Assembly (NCBI GenBank): GCA_000004985.1
Contig: GG739200.1
DNA: 4,040 bases
Origin: Naegleria gruberi
Taxonomy: Eukaryota
Direction: 5' to 3' (one strand)
Position 1 is the stretch's first letter, and every line of letters begins with the position of its first letter. Positions 1-4,040 of the stretch are shown in pieces. Made by a program: the position numbers and the translations under genes. A model generated the notes under the pieces. That model was given only the letters and a program-made list of their open reading frames with translations, was not told the DNA's origin and ran no database searches.

Positions 1-200
1 GGGTTAGATTGTTCTCAGAGGAGTATCTTCCAACAAATTCAATCATTATTCCCAAGACAAGTAATAATACTATTATAGCTGTGAAAAGTACTATCATTAC
101 TCAGAAGAGTTCAAATGTTTCTCAGTCTTGGAGAACGTCAATACTCGACTGTATTCATTTCAACTTAAATGCATCAAATAATTCAAACATTACCTTATGA
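1..200 (+). CDS. Possible 3'-terminal coding fragment of an upstream gene, with a Ser/Thr/Asn/Ile-rich tail. The frame is open from the window edge (codons from nt 3) to TGA at 198-200.
   Basis: About 65 codons run without a stop in an AT-rich context where stops are frequent. The track's start at 9 is TTG, not ATG. The product is low-complexity (TNSIIIPKTSNNTIIAVKSTIITQKSSNVSQSW...) with several N-x-S/T sequons. No domain is recognisable, so this may be non-coding. Confidence 0.2.
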   Translation, partial: VRLFSEEYLPTNSIIIPKTSNNTIIAVKSTIITQKSSNVSQSWRTSILDCIHFNLNASNNSNITL

Positions 201-237
201 ACCTGAACAAATGTATAATTGTATTTTCTTCAATTTC

Positions 238-249
238 AAATATTAAAAA
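238..249 (+). promoter_or_regulatory. A-rich translation-start context (AAATATTAAAAA) immediately before the ATG at 250. It contains the 11-mer AATATTAAAAA, which is also found upstream of the gene-2 ATG.
   Basis: Read directly from the sequence. A at -3 and the A-run before the ATG are typical of AT-rich eukaryote start sites. Any role as a core promoter or initiator element is speculative. Confidence 0.25.
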
Positions 250-863
250 ATGTCATTACAACTCATTCCACTCGATACCATCACGATCATTGCTAAATTT
301 CTTTCATTTTCCGAACATCTCCAACTCATGCTAATCAATACCATTTGGTTCCATCTTTTAAATAGTGATGAGATGTGGAGAGGAAGAATAACACAACTCG
401 ACTCTCATCTTTCAATTCATGCCAAGTTGCTCAACAGGGAAGAACCCATTAAACTCCATGCAGAAAGTTCGAATATTAGAGAAATTCTAATGAATATTTA
501 TAAAGAAACCAAGGAATCGATCGATCTAGCATATAAATTGAAAGAATGTAAGAAAATTAAAAAACTCAAAAACACTTGGAGTACTAATTCGGAAGAAATT
601 GAAAACTTTACTAAATTTTGTGAGAATTTCAAATTGGAGGAATATGCGAATTTACTGAAAGAATCAGAGCCAATTAGATGTTGCCTAGTTGGGCCACATG
701 CTATTGGAAAGACCACTCTGTGTTATTATCTTCACCTTAGGAATGAAAAATCCAAATTGGAAGAGTGGTTTTCTGGATGGGGTCCCCATTACTATGATTC
801 GTGTGATATTGATAGAAGTGAAGGTTATTGTTTACAATTAGTAGACACACCAGGTCAGGAAGA
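250..863 (+). CDS. Exon 1 of an F-box/Rho-like GTPase gene. It carries an N-terminal F-box-like motif (about nt 262-378, LIPLDTITIIAKFLSFSEHLQLMLINTIWFHLLNSDEMW). A Lys/Glu-rich linker follows. The small-GTPase G domain starts at about nt 670, with P-loop GPHAIGKT at 691-714 and DTPGQE at 844-861. The exon ends in phase 2 (GA|).
   Basis: The ATG at 250 sits in an A-rich context. A 204-codon open frame covers the exon. The F-box spacing pattern (LP.D....I...L.....L..L..V...W....W) and the G1/G3 GTPase motifs were read directly from the translation. The in-frame TAA at 865-867 lies inside the proposed intron. Confidence 0.7.
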
Positions 864-920
864 GTAAGTTTAATGATTCATTCTCAACCCTTTAATCATT
901 GAATTATTATTATTACTCAG
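864..920 (+). other. Spliceosomal intron, 57 nt, phase 2. The donor is GTAAGTT and the acceptor is ..TTACTCAG.
   Basis: Removing 864-920 joins ..DTPGQE-GA|T-YDRLRPLSY.., which is exactly the Rho-family switch-II consensus DTAGQEDYDRLRPLSY. The canonical GTAAGT donor starts at 864 and an AG acceptor sits at 919-920. The intron holds an in-frame stop and an (ATT)4 run. Confidence 0.65.
903..914. repeat. (ATT)4 trinucleotide run inside the intron.
   Basis: attattattatt is visible in the sequence. Minor. Confidence 0.5.
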
Positions 921-1170
921 TTATGACAGATTAAGACCTTTATCTTATGATAAACCATCCAAATGTCACATTTTTATAATGTGCTATGCAATATCGAGTC
1001 CAGTAATGATGATTAAGTGTTTGGAGGATTTTTCTGATAGATTTCTTCCAGAAATTCAATCATTTTTGGATTACAACAGGTCAGTGTTGGTAGTTGGAAC
1101 AAAATCTGATATTTGTGATTATTCAAAAACAGGAGATTTTCGTTTGGGAAAATATTGGAATAGTTATTTG
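921..1170 (+). CDS. Exon 2 of the F-box/Rho-like GTPase gene, truncated by the assembly gap. It encodes (D)YDRLRPLSYDKPSKCHIFIMCYAISSPVMMIKCLEDFSDRFLPEIQSFLDYNRSVLVVGTKSDICDYSKTGDFRLGKYWNSYL...
   Basis: The frame is continuous with exon 1 after splicing. It aligns collinearly with RhoA residues 63 to about 140 (DYDRLRPLSY ... F.C.S..SP.S.EN..EKW.PE.... ...LVG.K.DL). The G4 motif reads TKSD instead of NKxD. The frame runs open into the N-run at 1171. Confidence 0.7.
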
Positions 1171-2613
1171 NNNNNNNNNNNNNNNNNNNNNNNNNNNNNN
1201 NNNNNNNNNNNNNNNNNNNNNNNNNNNNNNNNNNNNNNNNNNNNNNNNNNNNNNNNNNNNNNNNNNNNNNNNNNNNNNNNNNNNNNNNNNNNNNNNNNNN
1301 NNNNNNNNNNNNNNNNNNNNNNNNNNNNNNNNNNNNNNNNNNNNNNNNNNNNNNNNNNNNNNNNNNNNNNNNNNNNNNNNNNNNNNNNNNNNNNNNNNNN
1401 NNNNNNNNNNNNNNNNNNNNNNNNNNNNNNNNNNNNNNNNNNNNNNNNNNNNNNNNNNNNNNNNNNNNNNNNNNNNNNNNNNNNNNNNNNNNNNNNNNNN
1501 NNNNNNNNNNNNNNNNNNNNNNNNNNNNNNNNNNNNNNNNNNNNNNNNNNNNNNNNNNNNNNNNNNNNNNNNNNNNNNNNNNNNNNNNNNNNNNNNNNNN
1601 NNNNNNNNNNNNNNNNNNNNNNNNNNNNNNNNNNNNNNNNNNNNNNNNNNNNNNNNNNNNNNNNNNNNNNNNNNNNNNNNNNNNNNNNNNNNNNNNNNNN
1701 NNNNNNNNNNNNNNNNNNNNNNNNNNNNNNNNNNNNNNNNNNNNNNNNNNNNNNNNNNNNNNNNNNNNNNNNNNNNNNNNNNNNNNNNNNNNNNNNNNNN
1801 NNNNNNNNNNNNNNNNNNNNNNNNNNNNNNNNNNNNNNNNNNNNNNNNNNNNNNNNNNNNNNNNNNNNNNNNNNNNNNNNNNNNNNNNNNNNNNNNNNNN
1901 NNNNNNNNNNNNNNNNNNNNNNNNNNNNNNNNNNNNNNNNNNNNNNNNNNNNNNNNNNNNNNNNNNNNNNNNNNNNNNNNNNNNNNNNNNNNNNNNNNNN
2001 NNNNNNNNNNNNNNNNNNNNNNNNNNNNNNNNNNNNNNNNNNNNNNNNNNNNNNNNNNNNNNNNNNNNNNNNNNNNNNNNNNNNNNNNNNNNNNNNNNNN
2101 NNNNNNNNNNNNNNNNNNNNNNNNNNNNNNNNNNNNNNNNNNNNNNNNNNNNNNNNNNNNNNNNNNNNNNNNNNNNNNNNNNNNNNNNNNNNNNNNNNNN
2201 NNNNNNNNNNNNNNNNNNNNNNNNNNNNNNNNNNNNNNNNNNNNNNNNNNNNNNNNNNNNNNNNNNNNNNNNNNNNNNNNNNNNNNNNNNNNNNNNNNNN
2301 NNNNNNNNNNNNNNNNNNNNNNNNNNNNNNNNNNNNNNNNNNNNNNNNNNNNNNNNNNNNNNNNNNNNNNNNNNNNNNNNNNNNNNNNNNNNNNNNNNNN
2401 NNNNNNNNNNNNNNNNNNNNNNNNNNNNNNNNNNNNNNNNNNNNNNNNNNNNNNNNNNNNNNNNNNNNNNNNNNNNNNNNNNNNNNNNNNNNNNNNNNNN
2501 NNNNNNNNNNNNNNNNNNNNNNNNNNNNNNNNNNNNNNNNNNNNNNNNNNNNNNNNNNNNNNNNNNNNNNNNNNNNNNNNNNNNNNNNNNNNNNNNNNNN
2601 NNNNNNNNNNNNN
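1171..2613. other. Assembly gap of 1,443 N.
   Basis: An uninterrupted run of n. It separates the 3' portions of two convergent genes. All ORF-track entries made of X are artifacts of this gap. Confidence 0.99.
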
Positions 2614-2881
2614 CATAACATTGATTCTTGGTAGTTATGGCAATTATTAAATTATTTAATTGATTAGTCGTAACAGTAGTAATATATGAAATGGTACCAT
2701 CAAGTTTTGGGAGTGTATAATCTATTTTATGGAAATTAATATGGAGTACTTTAACTTTGTTTACTCCGAGTTGATCTTTCAAGCCTTGTGGAATTTTTAA
2801 TAAATTATCGGATAGAATTAGTTTTACTAATTCTTGTTCATGATCTTCTTGATGTTCTTCTTTTTGTGGAATTCTCTTCAT
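2614..2881 (-). CDS. N-terminal part of a leucine-rich-repeat protein. The product is MKRIPQKEEHQEDHEQELVKLILSDNLLKIPQGLKDQLGVNKVKVLHINFHKIDYTLPKLDGTISYITTVTTNQLNNLIIAITTKNQCY... and continues into the gap.
   Basis: The first ATG on the - strand is the reverse complement of 2879-2881. It is preceded by AAAAAAA, the same A-rich start context as gene 1. A classical LRR signature LxxLxLxxNxLxxIPxxL is present (LVKLILSDNLLKIPQGL), followed by a second LRR-like unit (VKVLHINFHKI). The frame stays open down to the N-run. The upstream in-frame hydrophobic stretch on the track begins at TTG, not ATG. Confidence 0.5.
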
Positions 2882-2892
2882 TTTTTTTGTAG

Positions 2893-2908: not shown

Positions 2909-3694
2909 TAATACCAAAATAAAGATCAGCAAGGCTACACTTTTAAAAAGCAATAAATAAACTCGATTGTTAGCTATCTTTATTCTTCAATAACCTGAAC
3001 AAACAAGATTCGTCCAAGAACTCTTGAATTCACTGTTCATACAGTCAAAGACTGTAGCGGGATTGTCGCCATATTCCTGGCAGGCTTCCCGTCTAAATCA
3101 TTAAGTGAAATTTATTAAAATCTTAAATTTAATTATTTTTTAGTCATTAATATTATTGGCATTCTACATTGGGGCAGTAGTTGATTATGAAGAAACTCTT
3201 TTCATTTTCCAGTATTTAGTACCAAGCCAAATATTTCCTTAGGTGTCCTAAGATTTCAGGATAAAGAACTATTTGCCAAGTTAATTGAAAAAAGACTACA
3301 GCAGCACAGGTTCCCACATCAGTACTACAAAGACCAATGTTAGATTCATTATTGCAGGTGGATTTGTTACACATCTGGTATCTAATTGTGGTTGTTGTGA
3401 TATTGATATTTTCACAATTTCTAATGGGTCTAGTTACGAAATTATCGATGATATGATCATCATAGATTTGGTATTATTTTTTAATGAAAAACTATTATCA
3501 TCATTCCAGTGAAATGTGAGCTTAAAAACTCTCTGAGCCATGTCATGAATGTTTGTGCATGGAGTCTGTGTTCAAATGGGTGCAAATCAACACACAGTGT
3601 ATCCAATCCTCTTCTACTATATTTGATGGCTCTATTTACAATATGATATTCACTACTTTTGTCATACCATTGAAGAGTTACTCATCAAACATCC

Positions 3695-4040
3695 ATGTAC
3701 ATTACTGAAGGTTATTTGGATAGCCATCATAAAAGCAAGTATGGATTCGATAGATGCTACTTGTGCAATCAATACAAGATGGACGGCTTTAAATCCATGT
3801 GTCACAAATGTAAATATTGGAATATTGGAATGGAAAAGATGCATAGAGATCTTTCTGGAAAAGTTGCATTCGTTACAGGAGGAAGATGTAAAATAGGTTA
3901 TGAAACTAGTTTGCTATTATTGAGAATGAAAGCAACTGTAGTGGTCACAACAAGATTTGGCTTTAATGCACTCTCCAAATTCCAGAAAGAAAGCGACTAT
4001 AAGGAATGGAAAGATAATTTGATTATTTACCCTCTGAATT
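3695..4040 (+). CDS. N-terminal part of a short-chain dehydrogenase/reductase (SDR) family oxidoreductase; the ORF runs off the window end. Alternative starts lie at 3779 (MDGF.., strong Kozak context A-3/G+4) and at 3830 (MEKMHRDLSGKVAFVTGG.., the canonical SDR N-terminus).
   Basis: The frame is open from the TGA at 3671-3673 to the window end (122 codons). The Rossmann nucleotide-binding motif KVAFVTGGRCKIGYETSLLLLRMKATVVVTTR was read directly; it has the TGxxxGxG form and a basic Arg after beta-2, which suggests NADP(H) preference. Upstream of that core is an in-frame CYLC-x11-CHKC segment. The ORF track did not list this ORF because it has no stop inside the window. Confidence 0.6.
   Translation, partial: MYITEGYLDSHHKSKYGFDRCYLCNQYKMDGFKSMCHKCKYWNIGMEKMHRDLSGKVAFVTGGRCKIGYETSLLLLRMKATVVVTTRFGFNALSKFQKESDYKEWKDNLIIYPLN

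What the first reader, a model, noticed from the sequence alone, without database searches (positions are those of the whole stretch)
250..1170. F-box motif fused to a Rho-family GTPase domain in one spliced reading frame
Residues 5-43 of the exon-1 product fit the F-box (Skp1-binding) spacing pattern. Residues from about 141 onward, continuing through exon 2, form a Rho-like G domain with P-loop, DTxGQEDYDRLRPLSY and xKxD motifs. I do not know of a common, well-characterised family that combines an F-box with a small GTPase domain. The nearest conceptual analogue is RhoBTB, which pairs a Rho domain with a Cul3-adaptor BTB domain. An SCF-type (Cul1) counterpart could be either a nucleotide-state-dependent substrate receptor or a self-regulating GTPase. 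This functional reading is inference from domain content only.
Basis: partly seen in the sequence, partly recalled or inferred. Interest (0 to 1): 0.7.

Follow-up and report, generated by a model that had tools for sequence, protein, structure and literature searches.

The report
Naegleria Rho GTPase with cryptic F-box
This Naegleria gruberi gene encodes an unusual Rho-type GTPase with a weak but real-looking F-box motif at its front end, but F-box-plus-GTPase fusions were already catalogued in Naegleria in 2021, so it is a further member of a known, still untested class.

Summary
The window is a 4,040-bp Naegleria gruberi scaffold. The two-exon gene is real: exon 1 at 250-863, a 57-nt GT..AG intron, and exon 2 from 921 into the N run. 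A gap-free metagenome allele (L001) and a published corrected model give the full 348-aa protein ending KKEKCILC.

Residues 141 onward are an atypical Rho/Rac G domain. It passes the Pfam Ras model (E 1e-11 to 2e-12) and best matches Cdc42, TC10 and Rac. The P-loop is GPHAIGKT and the switch I threonine is missing.

The N-terminal F-box resemblance falls just below Pfam's cutoff: 14.4-18.4 bits, 20.2 in the allele, against 20.5. It depends on residue order, since 0 of 20,000 shuffles match it. Structure prediction gave no support.

Herman et al. [quoted passage not shown] Their Table S8 lists this gene as "Rac" with no F-box flag.

Verdict: a probable new, cryptic member of a known, functionally untested class. 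Interest is low to moderate.

The parts
250..863 (+). Exon 1: start codon through the first two bases of codon 205. Encodes the F-box-like motif, the helical linker and G1-G3 of the Rho domain.
   Evidence: The ORF begins at the first ATG after an in-frame TAA at 244-246. It is identical to P0002 = XP_002668220.1.
259..381 (+). F-box-like motif, residues 4-44 (QLIPLDTITIIAKFLSFSEHLQLMLINTIWFHLLNSDEMWR).
   Evidence: PF00646 scores 14.4-18.4 bits and PF12937 13-15.4 bits, both below cutoff. The L001 allele scores 20.2 bits. hhalign against published Naegleria GTPase F-boxes gives P=0.0039. On a local F-box HMM it scores 15.5 bits, with 0 of 20,000 shuffles as high.
382..669 (+). Lys/Glu-rich linker, residues 45-140, predicted helical. 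It has no detectable homologue outside the N. gruberi copies.
   Evidence: AF2 secondary structure is low confidence. An exhaustive profile search found only the gene's own cluster. Flagged F-box Racs have linkers of similar length.
691..714 (+). P-loop (G1) GPHAIGKT, residues 148-155. The Rac D11 and G12 positions are Pro and His.
   Evidence: Alignment to a canonical Rac-type sequence and to TC10/Cdc42.
757..798 (+). Switch I region, residues 170-183 (LEEWFSGWGPHYYD). It carries an insertion and has no equivalent of the invariant Thr35.
   Evidence: The aligned residue is Gly or His, depending on the aligner.
844..863 (+). Start of switch II (G3), DTPGQE plus the first two bases of the Asp205 codon. 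Gln61 equivalent retained; A59 is Pro.
864..920 (+). Intron, 57 nt, GTAAGT...CAG.
   Evidence: The splice restores DTPGQEDYDRLRPLSY. The published corrected model uses the same junction. L001 conserves the intron with 2 substitutions.
921..1170 (+). Visible part of exon 2, residues 205-288: the rest of switch II (YDRLRPLSY, 922-948), G4 TKSD (1099-1110) and the start of the Rho-insert region. It runs into the N run.
1171..1353 (+). Inferred remainder of exon 2, hidden by Ns: 60 codons plus the stop (CKKYDSYGKKLSQWMGAVSYVTTSSREFVGLEELEDLIVKTFIYSKLIKAPNKKEKCILC*). Includes G5 and a polybasic CaaX motif.
   Evidence: Not readable in the window. Inferred from L001 1294-1476 and from Herman et al.'s corrected model of this very gene. 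The two are identical over these 60 residues.

Best explanation
The locus encodes a 348-residue, two-exon protein specific to the N. gruberi lineage. Its parts, in order, are a divergent F-box (residues 4-44), a helical linker of about 95 residues, an atypical Rho/Rac-type G domain (about 141-330), and a polybasic CaaX tail (KKEKCILC).

It belongs to the large Naegleria expansion of GTPases carrying N-terminal F-boxes that Herman et al. described in 2021. In this gene and its paralogue XP_002682426.1 the F-box has diverged below standard detection thresholds.

Most likely mechanism (inferred, not shown):
- The CaaX tail is prenylated and anchors the protein on a membrane.
- The F-box docks Skp1, and through it Cul1-Rbx1.
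- The Rho-like domain acts as the target-recognition or localisation module of an SCF ubiquitin ligase, or the protein is itself turned over by that ligase.
- This parallels RhoBTB with Cul3 and Rab40 with Cul5.

The Rac Gly12 position is His and the switch I Thr is missing. The G domain is therefore probably not a conventional GAP-regulated hydrolysing switch. As with the other atypical Rho proteins, control by abundance and degradation is more plausible than control by a GTP/GDP cycle.
For: Shown:
- Gene structure and full ORF, from the window, a published corrected model and an independent gap-free allele.
- Rho-family G domain: Pfam Ras 45-47 bits, with TC10, Cdc42 and Rac as best solved relatives.
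- Motif map: GPHAIGKT, no Thr35, DTPGQEDYDRLRPLSY, TKSD, a Rho-insert-length segment, and CILC.
- F-box similarity: PF00646 and PF12937 are the top two hits for the N-terminus, at E 0.002-0.04. This is reproduced in the paralogue and reaches 20.2 bits (E 5e-4) in the L001 allele.
- Published flagged Naegleria F-box Racs themselves score only 20.2-22.8 bits.
- hhalign places residues 4-44 in register with those F-boxes, P=0.0039.
- On an HMM built from 13 flagged Naegleria GTPase F-boxes plus 3 solved F-boxes it scores 15.5 bits. None of 20,000 shuffles reaches that, and the reversed sequence scores -1.2.
- 0 of 9 individual shuffles hit the Pfam F-box model.
- Same-genome context: at least 11 N. 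gruberi Rac genes are flagged F-box, with the same order of F-box, linker of roughly 80-140 residues, G domain and CaaX.
- Herman et al. propose GTPase-dependent ubiquitination for the class.

Inferred from established knowledge: F-boxes bind Skp1, Gly12 and Thr35 are needed for normal hydrolysis and switching, and CaaX motifs direct prenylation.
Against: - The F-box never reaches Pfam's gathering score in the window gene.
- Herman et al., using SMART, Pfam and CDD, did not flag an F-box in this gene or its paralogue.
- The gene's own N-terminal profile retrieves no solved F-box protein at E<=10. The flagged-set profile, by contrast, retrieves about 30.
- A 6-sequence Naegleria-only HMM gave only 5.5 bits, p about 0.011.
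- AF2 gave no three-helix F-box fold. The 140-aa model has pLDDT 45.9, and the 57-aa model is a single long helix.
- Leave-one-out scores of true members (23-59 bits) are well above this gene's 15.5.
- There are no data on transcription, on the start site, or on Skp1 binding.
- pN/pS between the two alleles is 0.57 on only 10 differences, so constraint is not demonstrated.
Confidence: 0.6

Rival explanations
1. The N-terminal segment is not a functional F-box. It may be a degenerate relic, or an unrelated amphipathic helical extension that happens to fit the Leu/Ile-rich F-box spacing. On this reading the protein is just a lineage-specific atypical Rho GTPase with an N-terminal helical or coiled-coil extension and has no link to SCF.
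For: - The Pfam scores are below threshold.
- It was not flagged by Herman et al..
- Its own profile gives no solved F-box hits.
- AF2 gives one long helix or a low-confidence model.
- Part of the Pfam score depends on composition: the hit vanished when the segment was embedded in same-composition context.
- It scores far below leave-one-out members.
Against: - The similarity depends on residue order: 0 of 20,000 shuffles match it and the reversed sequence scores -1.2.
- The only Pfam families hit by the N-terminal 57 residues are the two F-box models, over the full model length.
- The allele with canonical 'LP' reaches 20.2 bits, equal to a published flagged member.
- The position and architecture match the many F-box GTPases of the same genome.
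Confidence: 0.25
2. The locus is a decaying copy in a birth-and-death gene family and is no longer under selection. The domain combination would then be a historical remnant without current function.
For: - Herman et al. note birth-and-death evolution and disrupted copies in the related Naegleria-specific Rab-like clades.
- The paralogue model XP_002682426.1 lacks GQEDYDRLR (switch II).
- A third copy, XP_002668755.1, exists only as a C-terminal half fused to DUF4116.
- The catalytic Gly12 and Thr35 positions are lost.
- pN/pS of 0.57 is not clearly low.
- No orthologue was detected outside N. gruberi.
Against: - The 348-codon ORF, both splice sites, the CaaX box and switch II are intact in two independent sources.
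- All six amino-acid differences between the alleles are conservative or surface-type changes.
- Herman et al. did not mark this gene as a putative pseudogene.
- Loss of Gly12 and Thr35 is typical of functional atypical Rho proteins (established knowledge).
Confidence: 0.1
3. The fusion is a gene-model artefact, and the F-box-like part and the GTPase part belong to different transcripts or proteins.
For: - No transcript evidence could be examined.
- Two small upstream ORFs (ATG at 197 and at 211) precede the start codon, so start-site usage is untested.
- The original NCBI model stopped at the intron.
Against: - The F-box-like motif (codons 4-44) and the P-loop and switch regions (codons 148-204) share one continuous exon-1 ORF with no stop, so no splice is needed to join them.
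- The arrangement is conserved in the L001 allele and in the paralogue.
Confidence: 0.05

Closest known systems
Naegleria F-box-GTPase fusions, specifically the F-box 'Rac' proteins of N. gruberi and N. fowleri (Herman et al. 2021, BMC Biol 19:142, Supplementary Material 4, Fig. S7, Table S8)
   Same: Same genome and same domain order: an N-terminal F-box, a helical linker of roughly 80-140 residues, a divergent Rho/Rac G domain, and often a CaaX tail. This gene is in the same table as a 'Rac', with the same corrected splice.
   Different: Its row and the paralogue's row carry no F-box flag. Its F-box is weaker: 15.5 bits against 23-59 in leave-one-out. The N-terminal 140 residues have no detectable homologue outside its own small cluster. 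No member of the class has been tested experimentally.
RhoBTB (atypical Rho domain plus tandem BTB domains; a Cul3 adaptor and substrate)
   Same: An atypical Rho-type G domain, probably not a hydrolysing switch, is fused in one polypeptide to a cullin-RING-ligase adaptor module. This is the same logic of coupling a Rho module to ubiquitination. Naegleria also has true RhoBTB genes.
   Different: The adaptor here is F-box-like (Skp1/Cul1), not BTB (Cul3). It lies N-terminal rather than C-terminal to the G domain. No BTB hit was found. This protein has a CaaX tail. RhoBTB properties are cited from established knowledge and from the Ji & Rivero 2016 reference listed.
Rab40 (Rab GTPase with a C-terminal SOCS box; an Elongin B/C-Cul5 adaptor)
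   Same: A prenylated small GTPase carries a short cullin-adaptor box, so the GTPase is the substrate receptor of a cullin-RING ligase (established knowledge; not tested here).
   Different: Rab family rather than Rho. SOCS box with Cul5 rather than F-box with Cul1. The box lies C-terminal to the G domain.
TbFRP (FYVE + F-box + Rab-like GTPase, Euglenozoa; PMC3593210)
   Same: An F-box lies upstream of a Ras-superfamily G domain in one protein, in another discoban lineage. [quoted passage not shown]
   Different: [quoted passage not shown] Its authors found no Naegleria orthologue. Neither FYVE nor Rab features are present here.
SCF ligases acting on Rho GTPases in trans (e.g. FBXL19 on Rac3; PMC3994216), and the non-SCF F-box protein Roy1 binding Ypt52 (PMC3084679)
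   Same: These show that F-box/Skp1 modules and small GTPases do work together, either for degradation or for nucleotide-state-specific inhibition (abstracts).
   Different: There the F-box and the GTPase are separate polypeptides.

Membership tests
F-box domain (Pfam PF00646 / PF12937) | Score at or above Pfam's gathering threshold (20.5 / 24.3 bits) | tested here: not met
   The window gene scores 14.4 bits (full length), 16.5 (residues 1-140) and 18.4 (residues 1-57). The paralogue scores 14.8 and the L001 allele 20.2. PF12937 scores 13-17.3. Published flagged Naegleria F-box Racs are also just below cutoff in Pfam, at 20.2-22.8.
F-box domain (Pfam PF00646 / PF12937) | A motif of about 40 residues with (L/I)P, regularly spaced hydrophobics, a conserved Trp and a terminal D..(L/M)W, matched over the full model | tested here: met
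   Residues 4-44 align to model positions 2-42 of 43. The hallmark residues are I/L6-P7, D9, I11, I14, F17-L18, L24, L26, L28-I29, W33, L36-L37, D40 and M42-W43.
F-box domain (Pfam PF00646 / PF12937) | Similarity exceeds what composition alone gives | tested here: met
   It scores 15.5 bits on an HMM of 13 flagged Naegleria F-boxes plus 3 solved F-boxes. None of 20,000 shuffles reaches that (maximum 13.4), and the reversed sequence scores -1.2. 0 of 9 shuffles hit the Pfam F-box model.
F-box domain (Pfam PF00646 / PF12937) | Three-helix F-box fold | tested here: inconclusive
   The AF2 model of residues 1-140 has pLDDT 45.9, with helices at 10-19, 22-37 and 42-63. The AF2 model of residues 1-57 is one continuous helix, 8-56, which is typical of a near-single-sequence prediction. 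No fold search was worthwhile.
F-box domain (Pfam PF00646 / PF12937) | Binds Skp1 and assembles into SCF | not testable with these tools
   Requires co-IP, yeast two-hybrid or a complex prediction with N. gruberi Skp1.
Rho family of small GTPases | Ras-superfamily G domain above the curated threshold, with Rho/Rac/Cdc42 as nearest relatives | tested here: met
   PF00071 scores 45.1-47.3 bits against a cutoff of 21.6. The top 60 solved matches are all TC10, Cdc42 or Rac, E 1e-14 to 3e-12. NCBI names the paralogue 'rho family member'. Herman et al. class this gene as 'Rac'.
Rho family of small GTPases | Rho-type switch II (DTAGQEDYDRLRPLSY) and a Rho insert between G4 and G5 | tested here: met
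   Switch II reads DTPGQEDYDRLRPLSY. There are about 42 residues between TKSD and the G5 TSS, against about 38 in a canonical Rac-type sequence, and the two align across the insert.
Rho family of small GTPases | Canonical catalytic and switch residues (Gly12, Thr35, Gln61) of a cycling GTPase | tested here: not met
   The P-loop is GPHAIGKT, so the Gly12 position is His and the Asp11 position is Pro. No Thr lies at the Thr35 position (His or Gly here, Arg in the paralogue), and there is an insertion in switch I. Gln61 is retained. The protein is therefore an atypical Rho.
Rho family of small GTPases | C-terminal CaaX prenylation motif | tested here: met
   The protein ends KKEKCILC* in the L001 allele and in Herman et al.'s model of this gene. 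This part is hidden by Ns in the window itself.
Naegleria F-box-GTPase fusion class (Herman et al. 2021) | A Naegleria gene with an F-box N-terminal to a Ras-superfamily G domain, listed and flagged as such | tested here: inconclusive
   The organism and the listing as 'Rac' are confirmed. The architecture matches. The authors' 'additional domain' column is empty for this gene and for its paralogue, so membership rests on the sub-threshold F-box evidence above.
RhoBTB | Tandem BTB domains C-terminal to the Rho domain | tested here: not met
   No BTB hit appears at E<=10 in the full 348-aa protein. The protein ends about 20 residues after the G domain.
TbFRP (FYVE-F-box-Rab-like GTPase) | N-terminal FYVE domain and a Rab-like G domain | tested here: not met
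   There is no FYVE hit and the G domain is Rho-type. The TbFRP authors found no Naegleria orthologue.

The most novel reading that the evidence does not exclude
This protein and its flagged relatives could be membrane-anchored SCF (Skp1-Cul1) substrate receptors in which an atypical, non-cycling Rho domain is the substrate-binding or targeting module. That would be a third, independently evolved way of wiring a small GTPase directly into a cullin-RING ligase, after RhoBTB with Cul3 and Rab40 with Cul5. Such a system, massively expanded in Naegleria, could be a major and so far unexplored layer of regulation by GTPase-directed ubiquitination.
Probability: 0.35. Interest if true: 0.6.

Novelty: new member of a known kind. 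Interest (0 to 1): 0.27.

Why it matters
If the F-box works, this gene adds a hidden member to Naegleria's large family of GTPases fused to ubiquitin-ligase adaptor boxes. It also shows that threshold-based domain searches undercount the family. In the published table, two other unflagged entries score at least as high as this gene on the same F-box HMM, and a third scores about the same.

The class is a natural Cul1 counterpart of RhoBTB and Rab40 and has never been tested experimentally, so any member that binds Skp1 would be a useful entry point. The idea itself, F-box plus Rho in Naegleria implying GTPase-dependent ubiquitination, is already in print. The finding therefore refines an existing catalogue rather than opening a new question.

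Tried and rejected
- The exhaustive HMMER search with the N-terminal 140-aa profile found only the gene's own cluster. The word-index search with the N-terminus also found only itself. No orthologues were available to deepen the profile.
- Contig look-ups for the paralogues P0001 and P0003 and for P0002 returned nothing. I could not check at the DNA level whether the missing switch II in XP_002682426.1 is real or a mis-splice.
- The PDB sequence search with the gene's own N-terminal profile gave no F-box hits.
- A Pfam control using concatenated shuffles was uninformative. The positive control (the real 57-mer embedded in same-composition shuffles) also lost its hit. I replaced it with individual shuffles and a local HMM with 20,000 shuffles.
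- The third homologue search, with an F-box profile, returned only 28 short FBXO3, FBXW and Skp2 fragments almost identical to the seeds. I therefore dropped the planned AF2 run with an F-box-containing alignment, which would have been circular and uninformative.
- Both AF2 jobs failed to give a usable fold for the N-terminus, so no fold search was run.
- Literature searches for the locus tags, and for Naegleria Skp1, found nothing specific.
- Rfam and tRNA scans of the window were empty.
- I rejected filing the gene as RhoBTB or TbFRP, because it has no BTB or FYVE domain.
Full report
**What the window is.** The 4,040-base window is 32% G+C and carries a 1,443-base run of N at 1171-2613. The exon-1 ORF (250-867) is 100% identical to a 205-aa 'predicted protein' of Naegleria gruberi, P0002 = XP_002668220.1 (NAEGRDRAFT_76869). 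That protein's only contig on record is 4,040 bp long, so the window is that whole scaffold.

**Checking the observation.**
- Exon 1 (250-863) ends with two bases of a codon.
- A 57-nt intron follows at 864-920, with GTAAGT at its start and CAG at its end.
- Exon 2 begins at 921. Joining the two exons is in frame and gives ...LQLVDTPGQE|DYDRLRPLSYDKPSK....
- Only that frame of exon 2 is open.
- An in-frame TAA at 244-246 lies directly before the ATG.
- The F-box-like segment (codons 4-44) and the P-loop and switch regions (codons 148-204) sit in the same uninterrupted exon. Their fusion therefore does not depend on the splice.

Two independent sources confirm the gene model.
- Herman et al. 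2021 (PMC8296547) list a manually corrected model of this very gene in Table S8. It uses the same junction, is 348 aa long and ends ...NKKEKCILC.
- A 1,779-bp metagenome contig (ENA ERZ929261, locus L001) carries a gap-free allele that is 98.7% identical. It has the same 57-nt intron (2 substitutions, splice sites intact) and an open exon 2 running to a TAA.
- The 60 C-terminal residues of L001 are identical to Herman et al.'s model.
- The window's CDS should therefore end near 1353, inside the N run.

**The G domain.**
- Pfam Ras (PF00071) scores 45-47 bits against a cutoff of 21.6.
- All 60 best solved relatives are TC10, Cdc42 or Rac, with E values from 1e-14 to 3e-12.

Aligned to a canonical Rac-type sequence, the domain is Rho-like but atypical:
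- The P-loop is GPHAIGKT. The Rac Asp11 and Gly12 positions are Pro and His.
- Switch I carries an insertion and has no Thr at the Thr35 position. The aligned residue is His or Gly here and Arg in the paralogue.
- Switch II, DTPGQEDYDRLRPLSY, is almost canonical and keeps Gln61.
- G4 is TKSD and G5 is TSS.
- A Rho-insert-length segment is present.
- The C-terminus is a polybasic CaaX motif, KKEKCILC.

From established knowledge of Ras and Rho proteins, substitutions at Gly12 and loss of Thr35 predict poor hydrolysis and altered switching. The same is seen in the atypical Rho proteins RhoBTB, Rnd and RhoH.

**Evidence for the F-box.**
- The only Pfam families hit by the N-terminal 57 residues are F-box (PF00646) and F-box-like (PF12937), over model positions 2-42 of 43.
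- PF00646 scores 18.4 bits (E 0.002) on residues 1-57, 16.5 on residues 1-140 and 14.4 on the full protein, against a cutoff of 20.5.
- The paralogue scores 14.8 bits.
- The L001 allele has the canonical Leu-Pro and scores 20.2 bits, E 5e-4.
- Published F-box-flagged Naegleria Rac proteins score only 20.2-22.8 bits in the same test, also just under Pfam's cutoffs.
- hhalign places residues 4-44 in register with six flagged Naegleria GTPase F-boxes, P=0.0039. That six-sequence profile is a valid F-box profile, because it retrieves about 30 solved F-box proteins from the PDB.
- I built an HMM from 13 flagged Naegleria F-boxes plus 3 solved ones. It scores the window sequence at 15.5 bits. None of 20,000 composition-matched shuffles reaches that (maximum 13.4), and the reversed sequence scores -1.2.
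- On the same HMM the paralogue scores 13.4 bits, matched by 1 of 20,000 shuffles.
- Nine individually submitted shuffles gave no Pfam F-box hit.

**Evidence against the F-box.**
- The Pfam threshold is never reached in the window gene.
- Herman et al., who used SMART, Pfam and CDD, left the 'additional domain' column empty for this gene and its paralogue.
- The gene's own profile finds no solved F-box protein at E<=10.
- True members score 23-59 bits in leave-one-out.
- AF2 gave no support. The 140-aa model has pLDDT 45.9, and the 57-aa model is one long helix.

I put the probability that residues 4-44 are a genuine, divergent F-box homologue at about 0.75-0.8. The probability that it still binds Skp1 is lower.

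**What is already known.** Herman et al. 2021, Supplementary Material 4, make these points:
- Both Naegleria species have many novel architectures that include a Ras-superfamily GTPase domain.
[quoted passage not shown] '

At least 11 N. gruberi 'Rac' rows in Table S8 are flagged F-box, some together with Kelch or BTB. True RhoBTB genes are also present. In Euglenozoa, TbFRP combines FYVE, an F-box and a Rab-like GTPase, and its authors found no Naegleria orthologue. What is new here is the case that this gene and its paralogue XP_002682426.1 carry a cryptic F-box and belong to that class.

**Distribution.**
- The 140-residue N-terminal region has no detectable relative outside its own 50%-identity cluster among 1.84 billion representatives.
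- N. gruberi has one full-length paralogue, XP_002682426.1, which is 80% identical. Its gene model lacks GQEDYDRLR.
- A third copy, XP_002668755.1, is seen only as a C-terminal half fused to DUF4116 repeats.
- The two alleles differ at 12 of 921 bases and 6 residues, all of them mild changes. pN/pS is 0.57 on 10 differences, too few to judge selection.

**Most likely mechanism (inferred).** A prenylated, membrane-anchored, non-canonical Rho module carries an N-terminal Skp1-docking F-box. Either it acts as the targeting or substrate-recognition subunit of an SCF ligase, or it is kept short-lived by SCF. This would parallel RhoBTB with Cul3 and Rab40 with Cul5.

Rival explanations, with my confidence in each:
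- A non-functional or relic F-box-like helix: 0.25.
- A decaying family member: 0.1.
- A transcript or gene-model artefact: 0.05.

**Verdict.** The gene is a probable new member of a known but uncharacterised kind. Interest is low to moderate.

Noticed in passing
window 1171-2613: A 1,443-base run of N hides the last 60 codons and the stop of the gene. Herman et al.'s corrected model and the L001 allele supply an identical C-terminus, so the sequence exists elsewhere. I could not tell whether the Ns are an assembly gap or masking.
   Followed up: yes
L001 1-1779 (ENA ERZ929261, run ERR1078381, project PRJEB11402, contig k127_528333): A metagenome sample contains a Naegleria allele of this gene that is 98.7% identical. 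It has an intact ORF and intron, and it has the canonical F-box 'LP' (I6L). It presumably comes from an environmental N. gruberi-like strain. The sample's origin was not looked up.
   Followed up: partly
P0001 = XP_002682426.1 and P0003 = XP_002668755.1 (other N. gruberi scaffolds; not in the window): Both paralogue gene models read ...LQLVDTPYSYDT..., skipping GQEDYDRLR (switch II). P0003 is modelled as DUF4116 repeats fused to the C-terminal half of the Rho domain and is absent from Herman et al.'s Table S8. This could be real degeneration or mis-splicing. The DNA could not be retrieved.
   Followed up: partly
Herman et al. Table S8 rows ACER01000821.1** (Rac), XP_002671737.1* (Rab), XP_002681167.1* (Ran): Other rows without an F-box flag also score on the local F-box HMM, at 20.5, 41.0 and 15.1 bits. 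The published count of F-box GTPases in N. gruberi is therefore probably an underestimate.
   Followed up: partly
window 197-334 and 211-246 (+): Two small upstream ORFs precede the start codon. The ATG at 197 opens a 45-codon ORF in another frame that overlaps the main ATG. The ATG at 211 opens an 11-codon in-frame ORF that ends at the TAA at 244-246. Both ATGs are conserved in L001. Their relevance depends on the unknown transcription start.
   Followed up: no
window 2614-2883 (-) and L001 1574-1777 (-): A convergent gene on the minus strand starts with MKRIPQKEEHQEDHEQ... at 2883 and runs into the N gap, with no Pfam family at E<=0.01. L001 shows the C-terminal end of a minus-strand gene about 100 bp downstream of the Rho gene's stop. 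It may be the same neighbour.
   Followed up: partly
window 3776-4040 (+): A partial ORF at the 3' edge reads ...MDGFKSMCHKCKYWNIGMEKMHRDLSGKVAFVTGGRCKIGYETSLLLLRMKATVVVTTRF... It carries a TGxxxxIG Rossmann start and gives a weak adh_short hit (E 0.017, residues 63-95). It is probably the 5' end of a short-chain dehydrogenase/reductase gene with a Cys-rich N-terminal extension.
   Followed up: partly
window 2950-3700: This AT-rich stretch contains only short ORFs on both strands, with no Pfam, Rfam or tRNA hit. It is presumably intergenic or holds small exons that could not be modelled.
   Followed up: partly
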